DNA of 63,557 nucleotides, the filler included, from Octopus bimaculoides (taxonomy: Eukaryota), in NCBI RefSeq assembly GCF_001194135.2. It is 7 parts of 7 records of this genome, joined end to end, with 100 filler letters (N's around TTAATTAATTAA, not from the genome) between each part and the next. Parts side by side here need not be neighbours in the genome. Positions count along the whole stretch, not along the records: positions 22,757 to 37,413 come from NC_068983.1; positions 37,514 to 45,781 come from NC_068982.1; 5 more parts are not named here. One strand, 5' to 3'. This document shows, one piece after another, positions 22,827-43,361 of this stretch (its first letter is position 1; each line of letters begins with the position of its first letter). Both the position numbers and the translations under genes were made by a program. Below the pieces are notes generated by a model. It saw nothing but the letters and a program-made list of their open reading frames with translations, was not told the origin of the DNA and searched no databases.

Positions 22827-23134
22827 ATTGTATAAAGGATGGTGGGTAAGGCTAAAACAATGCGAAGTAAATGCAAGGTAAATCACAAGAAAACAAACAT
22901 GTGAATTAATGTAGACTTACCTTATATTCAATATTTCAGGTTTATGACCCCATTTTCAAGAAATTGACGAATCTTGTCGATCGGCAACACTGGTCAATTT
23001 CTTGAAAATGGGGTTATAGCCCCGAAATATTGAATACAAGGTAAGTCTACATTAATTCATATATTTGTTTTCTTGTGATTTACTTTGCCTTTACTTCGCA
23101 TTGTTTTGGCCTTAACCACGATCCTTTATACAAT
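22827..23134. repeat. 308-bp diverged palindrome with degenerate hammerhead-like cores
   Basis: Arms 22827-22968 and 22993-23134 (142 nt each) enclose a 24-nt spacer. The mirrored ORFs MIYLAFTSHCF (-) and MIYFAFTSHCF (+) in the track reflect this symmetry. Confidence 0.9.
22999..23034 (+). pseudogene. Degenerate hammerhead-like core (mirror copy at 22927-22962, minus strand)
   Basis: UUC - UUGAAAA (vs CUGAAGA) - U - GGGG/CCCC - GAAA - UAUU - GAA. The spacing matches, but C3 and G8 are substituted in both arms. Confidence 0.4.
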
Positions 23135-23344
23135 ATATATATATATATATATATGTTCACACACACACATATACATATGTTTATGTGGAGGTTGTTTATG
23201 TGTATATACATACACATATACAGACGCACTCACATATACAGACATGTGTGTTACACACTTATATATACATACATGTAGGGATAAGCAAATTAGACAGTTC
23301 AATATATAAAGTATATTAAATACATGAAGTACAAAATATGTATG

Positions 23345-23447
23345 CATATAAAACGGCCCAACTTACACAGAGTACAAATGATGTAGAAAATCAACCCTTT
23401 AATTTTCTATATCATTTGTACTCTGTGTAAGTTGGACGTTTTATATG
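23345..23447. repeat. ~103-bp hairpin (MITE-like)
   Basis: Arms of ~46 nt (catataaaacggcccaacttacacagagtacaaatgatgtagaaaat and its reverse complement) enclose a 10-nt loop. Confidence 0.8.
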
Positions 23448-23455
23448 TATACATA

Positions 23456-25102
23456 TAGTATTTCCCAGAAGTATGTACACCTCTAAAAAATTTTCAGTAA
23501 AATTGCCATTACTCTGATGATATCGGAGGAAATCAAACGAAATATATACTGAATAAAATATAATATACATGCAAACATTATACAAATTTGGAACACAAAA
23601 CAATAAACATTTTCAAAGATATGAGCGAAAAAAAAATTTTTCAAACGTTACAAAAATATGTACACCCTAAAGGATTATTTGTTATATTCAATATTTGGTG
23701 TGACCGCCCTTGCTTTCAATGACTGCATGAAGTCTTCTGGGCATAGAGTCGACTAAATTTTCGCATATAACTGATGAAATCGACCTCCAGTCATCCTAAA
23801 CGATGTCTTTCAACAGTGTTACATCGCGAGATTTTTTCCTCCTCAGCCTTTTTCTTCAAAACACCACAGATGTTCTATTGGGTTTAAATCAAGTGACATG
23901 GTAGGCCAAGAGAATACCTTTACTTTTTTATCTGATAAAAACTTAGCCGTCATCTTTGAAGTGTGTTTAGGGTCATTATCATTTTGGAACATGGTATATC
24001 TTCCTACTTCCTTGATGTTTTTCAATATTGTTTTCCGCAATATGTCACAATAAAGCCTTGAATCCATTGTTCTCTCAATAAATGTGAGTCCTCCTACACC
24101 AGCTGCACTCATGCATCCCCAAAGCATAACACTTCCACCGCCGTGTTTCACGGTAGGTACGGTGTATATGTCGCTATTATCTTCACCTGATCGTCGCCAT
24201 ACTCTTTTAATATCATCTGACCCAAACAAGTTGATTTTAGTCTCGTCAGAAAAAAGAATTTTATTCCAAAACTCCTTCCCCTTACTCACATAGGTTTCGG
24301 TAAAAGAAAGACGACTTGATTTATGCCTGGTAGTGAGGAGAAGCTTCCTATGAAGAATGCGTCCATGAAGACCACATTGGTTCAAACTTCAGCGAACTGT
24401 TTAGGCGGATACACTCTTTCTACAAACAGAAGACACTTCTTCGGCCAAAGATGAAGCGGTACGACGCCTGTCGTCCATCACGCAACATTGGATGTGGAGA
24501 ATATAACGTGCAGCTAATATAGGACGACCTGGACGATGTTTATTGCTTAGCCGTCCAGTAGCTTTGTACTTCTGAATTACTTTGGCAACTGTGTTTATGC
24601 TAATATGTATTCGTTTGTTAATTACTTTGTTTCCTAAAGCATTTCTGTGCAAATTAAAAATAATTTTCTTCAAATCTTCAGACAATTTTTTTCCTTTCTT
24701 TTGGTGCCATTTTAATCACAATGAAAAAAAGTTTCAACACGGTACACAAATCAGAATTCCTGCAGATGAAATAACAATGACCGGTGCAAAAATGCCAGGA
24801 GAAATAATTTGTTAGAATTCAAATTATCAGCAATATCTAAATTTAATAAAAAAAAAAGTGGATAAAATACTGAATATAGCAAATTTCCTTTAGGGTGTAC
24901 ATACTTTTGCAACGTTTGAAAATTAATATTTCGTTCATATCTTTGAAAATGTTTATTGCTTAGTGTTCCAAATGTGTATAATGTTTGCATGTATAATATA
25001 TTTTTTTCAGTATAAATTTCGTTTGATTTCCTTCGATATTATCAGAGTAATGGCAACTTTACTGAAAAATTTTAGGGGTTTCCATACTTCTGTGCGATAC
25101 TG
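23456..25102 (-). mobile_element. Full-length Tc1-family (DD34E) transposon with ~230-bp IR/DR-type TIRs; inactive
   Basis: TIRs lie at 23456-23690 and 24871-25102 with TA on both flanks. Each TIR has an outer and an inner direct repeat (cagaagtatgtacacctctaa / caaaaatatgtacaccctaa). Total length is 1647 bp. Confidence 0.92.
23688..24710 (-). pseudogene. Tc1 transposase pseudogene
   Basis: Contains an N-terminal HTH with RPGRP, then FSDE, KHGGGSVMLWGC, FQNDNDPKH and DLNPIE (34 residues between D and E), and a C-terminal LVDSMPRRLHAVIESKGGHTKY. It has in-frame stops at 24401-24403 and ~24389 and frameshifts near 24690 and 23860. Confidence 0.93.
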
Positions 25103-26711
25103 TATATACATACTTTTGTTTTTCATGTATTTAATATACTTTATATATTGATCTGTCTAATTTGCTTGTCCCTACATTTACTTCTAAACCCGCTCTTTAC
25201 TAAGTGCATTCTATACGGAGAATAGAATATCTGGGTCTTATCTTTGAACTATATATATTGTAGCAAGTAATAAAAGGAGTCAATATGACGTAATGGTCGT
25301 TTGCCCGAACAAGCATAATTGTTGGTATCCCGTTGGTTAAAATTATTGCCCATAAACGAATTTTAAACTTTCGTCAAAGAAATCTTTCATGAAATACGGT
25401 TCTTAGAATTCGGATATGAGCAGTTATAAAAACCCTGATTTTAGGGAAATTAGTCAGTGATCGTTGGATGTTACTAAACTCCACGACACTCACTCCTTGA
25501 GACATTGGCTACTTTTTATGCCATGTCTATGACTTAAATCCAACAAGACTTATTTGAATTATTGTGAACTCTAGTAGTTAGTATGAAGGATTATCTAGTG
25601 TGAATTTTAAGTCATAACTATCTACGACAAAATGACTTTACTTTCCAATTGTACTGTAAATGCTAAATGTACATAGACAAACTAATGTAGCAATTATTTT
25701 CTCTTTCTTCACGTTCTTCAAATTGTTGATGAGATTTATTTCTGTAATTATGAAACTCTGTATTTTTTATAGCAGTTGAAAGAACACGAATTTATTTATC
25801 TTCAACATACATGCACACATAAAATGACCGTTAGCGTTTCAGAGTATATATTTCTCGCTATGGCGTTTATGTAGCTGGAGTGAGGATTTCTGTATAATGA
25901 TAACACTTATAAGTAAGTTATAAGTGACGTGTTTTTCAATATATATTCCTACTTCAAAAGTAAAAGATATTTATTATCCATTTCCAAATAGGAAACATAT
26001 AAAAGTGGTGTTACACAAACAGTAACCAAACCGACTATAAATATATATACATACATATATGTAATATCGTTTTGAAATATAATCATACTAAATTACGAAT
26101 ATCCTCTTATTTTCCCGATCTAAAGGTACTGATATTTGCCATGATGATATTTGTCATTACCTAACGTGCATGTATTTTTACACTAATTTACATTATTGAT
26201 AATATATGCATCTTGTAAGATACTAATATACTTATACAAATACATAGACAAAGAAATACAAAGGTATATACATATATGTATGTATACATTTACAGACACG
26301 TCCACAAATTCGTACCTCGATGCTCACATTTTGCATACACTAATATGTCTTGACTCTTGACATAAAAAGTGTATATTGCGTGCGCTCATATACACATAGC
26401 TATACCTACACATACACGCACACACACATATACAAGCAAAATATTTGGAGTTATTCGAGGATATTTACTTCATAATAAAGTATAAATGAAGTATAATGTA
26501 TAAAACTGTTATGGTAGATAAGCAGTTTCTTATGACAGGTATTCTACAACGGGCAGGCAGCTTTCGACCTTTTCTATCTAATATTTATGCTACTATCTAT
26601 ATATTTATGTGTTTCGAGATCCTCTGCTCCAAAAAAGAAAGAATTAATTCAGGTTCTCATGAAAGTTTATAAATTTTTATGACGTCAAATATATATATGT
26701 ATGTATATATA

Positions 26712-26751
<40 letters not shown>

Positions 26752-27415
26752 NNNNNNNNNNNNNNNNNNNNNNNNNNNNNNNNNNNNNNNNNNNNNNNNN
26801 NNNNNNNNNNNNNNNNNNNNNNNNNNNNNNNNNNNNNNNNNNNNNNNNNNNNNNNNNNNNNNNNNNNNNNNNNNNNNNNNNNNNNNNNNNNNNNNNNNNN
26901 NNNNNNNNNNNNNNNNNNNNNNNNNNNNNNNNNNNNNNNNNNNNNNNNNNNNNNNNNNNNNNNNNNNNNNNNNNNNNNNNNNNNNNNNNNNNNNNNNNNN
27001 NNNNNNNNNNNNNNNNNNNNNNNNNNNNNNNNNNNNNNNNNNNNNNNNNNNNNNNNNNNNNNNNNNNNNNNNNNNNNNNNNNNNNNNNNNNNNNNNNNNN
27101 NNNNNNNNNNNNNNNNNNNNNNNNNNNNNNNNNNNNNNNNNNNNNNNNNNNNNNNNNNNNNNNNNNNNNNNNNNNNNNNNNNNNNNNNNNNNNNNNNNNN
27201 NNNNNNNNNNNNNNNNNNNNNNNNNNNNNNNNNNNNNNNNNNNNNNNNNNNNNNNNNNNNNNNNNNNNNNNNNNNNNNNNNNNNNNNNNNNNNNNNNNNN
27301 NNNNNNNNNNNNNNNNNNNNNNNNNNNNNNNNNNNNNNNNNNNNNNNNNNNNNNNNNNNNNNNNNNNNNNNNNNNNNNNNNNNNNNNNNNNNNNNNNNNN
27401 NNNNNNNNNNNNNNN

Positions 27416-42833: not shown

Positions 42834-42852
42834 AGAGATTTAGAAATAATAC

Positions 42853-42910
<58 letters not shown>

Positions 42911-43082
42911 GATATGTGACACTTATTCAGTAGCCATGATAAAACTCCGAGTTTCGGATGCTAGGATGGGGGGTCCACTCCAGCATCTCTTCAGTTATCC
43001 AGCNNNNNNNNNNNNNNNNNNNNNNTGTGTGTGTGTGTGTGTGTGTGTGTGTAAAGATATGTGACACTTATTCAGTAGCCAT

Positions 43083-43144
43083 GATAAAACTCCGAGTTTC
43101 GGATGCTAGGATGGGGGGTCCACTCCAGCATCTCTTCAGTTATC
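43083..43144 (-). ncRNA. Mirror-copy hammerhead motif, GUU triplet
   Basis: Reverse complement of 43203-43264, identical except at 43088, which changes the cleavage-site C17 to U. Confidence 0.7.
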
Positions 43145-43202
43145 CAGCTACCGGAAATTCCTTTGAAAAACGGTCATTTTTCAAAGGAATTTCCGGTAGC
43201 TG

Positions 43203-43264
43203 GATAACTGAAGAGATGCTGGAGTGGACCCCCCATCCTAGCATCCGAAACTCGGAGTCTTATC
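43203..43264 (+). ncRNA. Minimal type I hammerhead ribozyme motif, GUC cleavage triplet
   Basis: GAUAA (stem I) - CUGAAGA - GAUGCU...AGCAUC (stem II, plus one extra C) - GAAA - stem III ACU/AGU with loop CGG - GUC (43257-43259) - UUAUC (pairs GAUAA). All core nucleotides are present. Confidence 0.75.
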
Positions 43265-43361
43265 ATGGCTACTGAATAAGTGTCACATATCTTTACAGAT
43301 AAATTCCTCTATTTGCATAATATCGAGGTCTCTTTCTTTCTTTTGTTGCCATTCCTGTCAA

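What the first reader, a model, noticed from the sequence alone, without database searches (positions are those of the whole stretch)
22827..43297. Three unrelated mini-palindromes share one architecture: head-to-head hammerhead ribozymes
Seen: three palindromes of 308, 232 and 248 bp with no obvious shared primary sequence. Each arm carries a minimal type I hammerhead layout (stem I - CUGANGA - stem II - GAAA - short palindromic stem III - NUH - stem I), always reading away from the centre. Known: such minimal hammerheads occur in Penelope-like element (PLE) terminal repeats and retrozymes, and PLEs often show inverted termini. Inference: these are a class of tiny, ORF-less, self-complementary PLE derivatives from at least three lineages. 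A read-through transcript of either strand makes the antisense arm first, so a 100-140 bp hairpin should sequester the ribozyme, whereas transcription starting in the spacer would free it. This suggests a conformationally gated ribozyme/dsRNA unit that could also feed ADAR or Dicer.
Basis: partly seen in the sequence, partly recalled or inferred. Interest (0 to 1): 0.82.

Follow-up and report, generated by a model that had tools for sequence, protein, structure and literature searches.

The report
Truncated head-to-head Penelope retrotransposon ends
The three palindromes are real and carry hammerhead-ribozyme motifs, but they are likely ordinary short insertions of the end module of Penelope-like jumping genes, laid down head-to-head during integration, not a new gated ribozyme device.

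Summary
The three inverted repeats are real (308, 232, 248 bp; arms 89, 95, 99% alike) and mutually unrelated. Hammerhead motifs read outward, but only 3 of 6 arms fit the layout as written: both P1 arms have the published U3-A8 core variant, and the P2 left arm has lost the U of NUH. Laying public runs on P2 shows a very high-copy family with two 3' ends about 33 nt apart. Most listed copies continue 5' into other sequence, and head-to-head junctions fall at many different places. So for P2 the palindrome is likely built at insertion and is not a replicating unit; P1 and P3 were not tested this way. Opposite-strand minimal hammerheads and inverted truncated copies with tails are already published for PLEs, and the scan noted the same on shark DNA. 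Gating is not supported: the arms are decaying, and published minimal PLE hammerheads need a dimer or protein. No autonomous parent was found. New member of a known kind; low interest.

The parts
22791..22826 (-). P1 one-sided extension (about 36 nt) beyond the left arm, ending in (TA)n; read as the PLE tail
   Evidence: sequence; tail reading by analogy with P2, not tested on copies
22827..22980 (-). P1 left arm; minimal hammerhead with U3-A8 core at 22959-22927, stem II decayed
22981..23134 (+). P1 right arm; U3-A8 minimal hammerhead 23002-23034 (5-bp stem II, 3-bp stem I), ends directly in (TA)n
30124..30135 (+). P2 left target-site duplication (12 bp)
30136..30169 (-). P2 tail: stretch between the family's two 3' ends (30135-37 and 30168-71), present on the left only
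   Evidence: table 7
30170..30279 (-). P2 left arm; hammerhead core from 30265, U16.1 mutated (30231); the family majority is intact there
   Evidence: table 3
30280..30307 (+). P2 spacer = further 5' family sequence of the right copy (left copy is 28 nt more truncated)
   Evidence: tables 2 and 7
30308..30409 (+). P2 right arm; intact minimal hammerhead 30317-30362, predicted cleavage after 30357
30410..30814 (.). SINE-like repeat inserted into the outer end of the P2 right arm, with a 12-bp duplication (30398-30409 / 30803-30814)
30815..30835 (+). last bases of the P2 right arm and right target-site duplication (30824-30835)
43050..43170 (-). P3 left arm; hammerhead core 43139-43083, starts directly at (TG)n
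43177..43297 (+). P3 right arm; hammerhead 43203-43264, weak Rfam Hammerhead_1 match
43298..43361 (+). P3 one-sided extension (up to 64 nt) before (TA)n; read as containing the tail, boundary uncertain
   Evidence: sequence; not tested on copies
42881..43003 (-). exact 123-nt duplicate of the P3 left end before an N gap; likely an assembly overlap
34056..34313 (-). H4: single-arm, non-palindromic hammerhead-bearing insert between two (TA)n tracts (core 34239-34185), a fourth unrelated family

Best explanation
The three palindromes are likely short, 5'-truncated insertions of the hammerhead-bearing end module (pLTR plus tail) of three unrelated Penelope-like element families, with the head-to-head mirror copy likely made during each integration and not carried as a fixed unit. 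Shown: outward-reading motifs; a one-sided extension on each; a target duplication at P2 and microsatellite flanks at P1 and P3; for P2, a very high-copy family with two 3' ends about 33 nt apart and variable inverted junctions. Inferred: a PLE reverse transcriptase/GIY-YIG protein acting in trans nicks AT-rich DNA. Both nicked strands would prime cDNA on the element RNA, one at the distal and one at the proximal internal start site, which puts the tail on one side only. Both cDNAs would stop early, just past the hammerhead, and be joined at their inner ends. Fold-back self-priming (PMC3846280) is the alternative for this step. The hammerhead is a passenger of the pLTR; at these loci it would be sequestered in a long hairpin if transcribed, and it is decaying.
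For: One-sided extensions in 3 of 3 palindromes. P2 12-bp target duplication; (TA)n/(TG)n flanks at P1, P3 and H4; 36,563, 44,153 and 27,988 contigs laid in the three contig runs, with summed depth in the millions on the arms against 0-100 on the unique flank. Loose ends of low agreement (about 0.4) at 30135-37 and 30168-71 in all three contig runs mark two family 3' ends. At 30279, 176-268 contigs per run and 1,245 RNA reads continue 5' into one shared (AAT/AAC)n stretch and not into an inverted arm. Nine of the 15 listed joints are same-strand skips, which on this palindromic reference read as head-to-head junctions at other places, each in 1-3 contigs per run; table 5c adds more. Both P2 arms share a minority base (30275/30312; about 90% of family depth differs), which fits one template. 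Literature: minimal type I hammerheads with long helix II, short helix I, a bulge 5' of helix II, the U3-A8 variant and opposite-strand pairs 100-700 bp apart (PMC4209133); inverted 5'-truncated copy, 30-40-bp tail at one end and microsatellite bias (PMC8557442); head-to-head most frequent, TSDs of 8-10 bp (PMC3846280); both strands cut and extended, with two RT starts bounding the tail (PMC11167929).
Against: No autonomous parent was found: no PLE domain among 9 window ORFs scanned, and 1 protein hit among 2 candidates, with no RT or endonuclease domain. Copy data exist for P2 only; P1 and P3 rest on anatomy and analogy. Only 15 of 263 joints and 24 of 1,315 loose-end rows were shown, so the share of palindromic copies is not measured. 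One record in run X4 (no. 21, 30232-30354, 15 differences, 1 gap, depth 107) spans P2's centre although that run showed no P2 flank, so a similar junction may recur. One listed joint (X4, 30169-30361) has depth 1,206. P3's extension may be longer than the usual 30-40 nt. Rfam support is weak or absent.
Confidence: 0.8

Rival explanations
1. At least one palindrome (P1 or P3 most plausibly) belongs to a non-autonomous family that is itself copied as a fixed palindrome by PLE machinery.
For: P1 and P3 copies were not examined. One X4 record spans a P2-like centre, and one joint has high depth. pLTR sequences alone can mobilise cargo in trans (PMC3846280).
Against: For P2, the dominant 5' continuation is non-inverted and junctions vary. 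A one-sided tail on each palindrome is what a single integration event leaves (PMC8557442).
Confidence: 0.12
2. The palindromes are MITE-like DNA transposons or chance hairpins whose hammerhead look is incidental.
For: No Rfam hit at gathering score. The window holds hammerhead-free palindromes, e.g. 23336-23456 inside a Tc1 terminal repeat.
Against: Strict descriptor 4 hits against 0 in 40 shuffles. Single-arm copies with two 3' ends and 5' extensions dominate the P2 family. Asymmetric tails and a 12-bp TSD do not fit MITEs (own knowledge). The motifs match published PLE variants, including the U3-A8 covariation.
Confidence: 0.04
3. The units are host-retained, conformationally gated ribozyme/dsRNA switches: hairpin on read-through, active ribozyme when transcription starts in the spacer.
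For: Predicted hairpins are very stable. Family RNA is present in both orientations, and A>G/T>C places are more numerous in RNA (79 of 169 A/T sites) than in DNA contigs (8-22 of 169).
Against: No RNA reads on the P2 flank and no place where many molecules begin or end (about 6% of one run, a fragmented library, so weak). Spacers 0-28 nt. Motif-breaking changes in 2 of 6 arms, and a SINE inside one arm. Predicted monomer stem III probability 0.12 or less in P3. Minimal hammerheads are inactive as monomers or need protein (PMC4209133, PMC11167929). The editing-type excess is not clearly above the rise of transversions in RNA (Fisher p 0.085, 0.26, 0.020 against the three contig runs), and the individuals differ.
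Confidence: 0.03

Closest known systems
Endonuclease-positive PLE insertions with inverted pLTR and tail (Penelope/Poseidon/Neptune; PMC3846280, PMC8557442)
   Same: Head-to-head inverted 5'-truncated copy, tail at one end only, TSD or microsatellite target, hammerhead in the end module.
   Different: Here both copies are cut back to 110-155 nt, so no ORF remains; the clade and parent are not identified.
Metazoan minimal PLE hammerheads (min-HHR; PMC4209133)
   Same: Type I, long helix II, 3-5 bp helix I, extra base after A9 (P1, P2), palindromic bases in place of helix III, U3-A8 variant, opposite-strand pairs close together.
   Different: New sequence families. P3 has a longer near-palindromic stem III and a bulge on the 3' side of stem II. 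Core-to-core distance is 42-68 nt, below the quoted 100-700 bp.
Poseidon element of Anolis (PAc; PMC11167929)
   Same: Two internal RT starts that bound the tail, downstream of the hammerhead (P2 ends lie 59-62 and 93-95 nt from the predicted cut site); AT-rich targets.
   Different: No coding frame shown here and no biochemistry; PAc is autonomous.
Non-LTR retrozymes and Schistosoma Sm-alpha SINE-like hammerhead repeats (bioRxiv 10.64898/2026.07.22.740005; PMC6765202)
   Same: Non-coding, type I hammerhead, high copy; retrozymes are proposed to derive from pLTRs.
   Different: Retrozymes are head-to-tail tandems; these are inverted pairs or single arms with minimal motifs.

Membership tests
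Penelope-like element insertion | hammerhead motif in the terminal module | tested here: met
   Descriptor hits in 5 of 6 arms (2 as the U3-A8 variant, one of them with decayed stem II); the sixth differs by a private change from an intact family majority
Penelope-like element insertion | 30-40 bp tail at one end, two 3' termini in the family | tested here: met
   P2: two ends about 33 nt apart in 3 of 3 contig runs. P1 (about 36 nt) and P3 (up to 64 nt) by anatomy only
Penelope-like element insertion | adjacent inverted 5'-truncated copy with variable truncation | tested here: met
   P2 family only: 9 of 15 listed joints are other head-to-head junctions; 248 not shown
Penelope-like element insertion | TSD or AT-rich/microsatellite target | tested here: met
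   12-bp TSD at P2; (TA)n/(TG)n flanks at P1 and P3, where no unique TSD can be told
Penelope-like element insertion | parent with telomerase-like RT and GIY-YIG endonuclease sharing the pLTR | tested here: inconclusive
   Nothing in 9 window ORFs or in one weak protein search; no genome held
Rfam Hammerhead_1 (RF00163) | score at or above the gathering threshold | tested here: not met
   P3 right 17 bits against 34; P1 and P2 right arms no match. The model describes canonical, not minimal, motifs
Active self-cleaving ribozyme | site-specific self-cleavage | not testable with these tools
   No sharp RNA ends, but that library cannot be expected to show them
Non-LTR retrozyme | head-to-tail tandem units, each with a type I hammerhead | tested here: not met
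   Arms are inverted; the only direct duplicate is an exact copy beside an N gap
MITE / DNA transposon | symmetric terminal inverted repeats and a fixed unit shared by copies | tested here: not met
   Asymmetric ends in 3 of 3; P2 family copies mostly continue as single arms; P1 and P3 copies not examined

The most novel reading that the evidence does not exclude
The P2 family is a SINE-scale non-autonomous element (order of ten thousand copies or more, shared by three related species) that borrowed the PLE end module. Its head-to-head copies are built by twin priming: both nicked target strands start cDNA, one at each of the two internal start sites. Thousands of natural junctions would then give a direct genomic readout of the still unresolved PLE integration step, and long perfect hairpins that feed ADAR as a by-product.
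Probability: 0.3. Interest if true: 0.45.

Novelty: new member of a known kind. Interest (0 to 1): 0.2.

Why it matters
Modest. It adds three (four with H4) hammerhead-bearing PLE-type families in an octopus-like genome. I found no description of cephalopod PLE hammerheads in the searches, and one 2026 octopus repeat paper has no occurrence of 'hammerhead' or 'palindrom' in its main text. The arrangement itself is published. The useful point is mechanistic: a high-copy family with two 3' ends and many independent inverted junctions is good material for deciding between self-priming and two-cDNA models of PLE integration, and such hairpins may add to the dsRNA load in a lineage with very high A-to-I editing (PMC5625713).

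Tried and rejected
Rfam at gathering score: 0 hits. E-value scan of 20000-46000: the 150 of 191 rows shown were hairpin and microsatellite matches below gathering score, with no hammerhead among them. Direct-repeat search was swamped by microsatellites. A P2 motif scan of metagenome contigs gave 2 loci and a generic head-to-head pattern in viral contigs gave 14; none of the 16 held a long inverted repeat or similarity beyond the 23-24-nt pattern, so all were rejected as chance. No whole genome was held, so no genome-wide count or parent search was possible. A protein search with a 48-codon open frame through the P2 left arm and tail gave one 94-aa Octopus bimaculoides predicted protein matching 21 of 26 residues: the same repeat inside a gene model, not a parent. 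The family's 5' continuation has no copy above chance in the window (6 matches, 4.4 expected). A-to-I editing: inconclusive. The 42881-43003 copy was rejected as a real tandem unit: it is identical over 123 nt and abuts an N gap. Lunse et al. (PMC5785218) was not held. No supplements were opened; those of PMC4209133 (alignment of metazoan motifs) and PMC13282606 (repeat library) might already list these families.
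Full report
Setting. The window is AT-rich, microsatellite-rich animal DNA with 5,886 N. No genome is held. The host is probably an octopus: this was first my recall of the repeat landscape, and a frame through palindrome P2 matches a predicted Octopus bimaculoides protein at 21 of 26 residues, which shows that the repeat family occurs in that genome.

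Observation. They share no sequence above shuffles. A descriptor for minimal type I hammerheads, written after I had seen the motifs, finds 7 cores in the window (shuffle mean 0.6, max 3, 40 shuffles); the strict version finds 4 against 0. All motifs in the palindromes read away from the centre. P2 right and both P3 arms fit. P1 has a U3-A8 core in both arms, with stem II decayed on the left. P2 left has lost U16.1. Rfam gives nothing at gathering score and, of three right arms scanned singly, only a 17-bit Hammerhead_1 match to P3. A fourth, single-arm motif sits in a roughly 260-bp insert between (TA)n tracts at 34056-34313, and hammerhead-free palindromes also occur.

Each palindrome is lopsided: about 36 nt of extra sequence outside the left arm of P1, 33 nt outside the left arm of P2, and up to 64 nt outside the right arm of P3. 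P1 and P3 sit in microsatellites. P2 is flanked by a 12-bp duplication (30124-30135 and 30824-30835) once a SINE-like insert with its own 12-bp duplication is removed from the tip of the right arm.

Copies (P2 only; the single read-laying run). Of 24 runs listed, 20 hold part of P2 and 14 hold half its words or more, under three organism labels among the best holders. I laid 4 of the 24. In the three contig runs, 36,563, 44,153 and 27,988 records lie on the stretch, with summed depth in the millions on the arms and 0-100 on the unique flank. The tool warns that this is no copy number; I read it only as an order of ten thousand copies or more. Copies leave the reference for unrelated sequence at two places, 30135-37 and 30168-71, in all three runs: two 3' ends about 33 nt apart. 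At the centre, 176-268 contigs per run and 1,245 RNA reads continue 5' of the spacer into a shared (AAT/AAC)n stretch, so the spacer is just more family sequence. Nine of 15 listed joints (248 not shown) are same-strand skips, which on a palindromic reference read as head-to-head junctions at other positions, each in 1-3 contigs per run. The six opposite-strand joints map to offsets of -1 to 20 nt within an arm and are not inversions. The family majority has U16.1 intact, so the break in P2 left is private; both arms share a minority base at the mirrored positions 30275 and 30312. Against my reading: one X4 record spans a P2-like centre at about 88% likeness although that run (80% read) shows no P2 flank, and one joint has depth 1,206. 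RNA (X24, about 6% of the run): 7,402 reads, both orientations equal, none on the flank at 30045-30109, no sharp ends. A>G/T>C places number 79 of 169 against 8-22 in the contig runs, but transversions also rise (Fisher p 0.085, 0.26, 0.020) and the individuals differ, so editing is not shown.

Mechanism. Best reading (0.8): 5'-truncated insertions of PLE end modules with the inverted copy made at integration. The shown steps are the anatomy and the P2 family structure. Inferred: a PLE protein in trans nicks AT-rich DNA; two cDNAs start at the distal and proximal internal sites; both stop shortly past the hammerhead and are joined. This fits the in vitro finding that a Poseidon protein cuts and extends both strands and starts at two sites bounding the tail (PMC11167929; parts 1-2 of 4 read). 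Self-priming on an antisense template is the published alternative (PMC3846280; passages and Discussion). A search for Penelope with 'twin priming' and 'inverted' listed 2 papers, neither about it by title and start of abstract; the library lacks most subscription papers. The arms are on opposite strands and cannot dimerise in cis; a single minimal motif showed no cleavage (PMC4209133; parts 1-2 of 4 read); and the loci are decaying.

Known. PMC4209133 already reports the motif architecture, the U3-A8 variant and opposite-strand pairs 100-700 bp apart, and says most motifs are single elements probably related to truncated PLEs. PMC8557442 (passages) lists the inverted truncated copy, one-sided tail and microsatellite bias. 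Retrozymes (bioRxiv 10.64898/2026.07.22.740005, part 1 of 5; PMC6765202, passages) are tandem, not inverted. Palindromic repeats as ADAR targets and heavy editing of a lizard Penelope are in PMC5625713 (passages). PMC13282606 (passages) reports recently active PLEs in an octopus without mention of hammerheads in its main text. Two earlier scan notes on shark DNA reached a similar reading; they are unchecked AI notes, seen after my reading and, and are not counted as support. No parent ORF was found, and P1 and P3 copies were not examined.

Verdict. Observation partly confirmed; interpretation partly supported (PLE origin yes; replicating palindromic class and gating not supported). New member of a known kind, interest 0.2.

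Noticed in passing
window 34056-34313 (-): Single-arm hammerhead-bearing insert between (TA)n tracts; a fourth unrelated PLE-type end module.
   Followed up: partly
window 23270-25180: Decayed Tc1/mariner element with long inverted termini; DDE_3 and HTH_SB Pfam matches on the minus strand.
   Followed up: partly
window 23336-23456: 121-bp hammerhead-free palindrome inserted into the left terminal repeat of the Tc1 element; MITE-like.
   Followed up: partly
window 42366-42834: Complex inverted-repeat element (arms 74-84% alike) with an internal direct repeat and no hammerhead hit, just left of P3.
   Followed up: no
window 51415-56625 (-): Uninterrupted 1,736-codon frame with no Pfam match at E 0.01; by eye it has repeated beta-propeller-like units. 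Unexplained.
   Followed up: partly
window 48724-49722 (-): Frame across an N gap that looks by eye like a LINE apurinic endonuclease region; no Pfam match.
   Followed up: partly
window 60714-60746: Isolated 32-nt match (87%) to the P2 tail without an arm; possibly an extreme truncation.
   Followed up: partly
window 29383-30044: Three nested or tandem copies of a SINE-like repeat immediately left of P2.
   Followed up: no
window 6219-6272: Small 54-bp palindrome without a hammerhead hit.
   Followed up: no
P0001: A 94-aa database protein named as an octopus dystrobrevin isoform begins with translated P2-family repeat: exonised repeat or gene-model error.
   Followed up: partly
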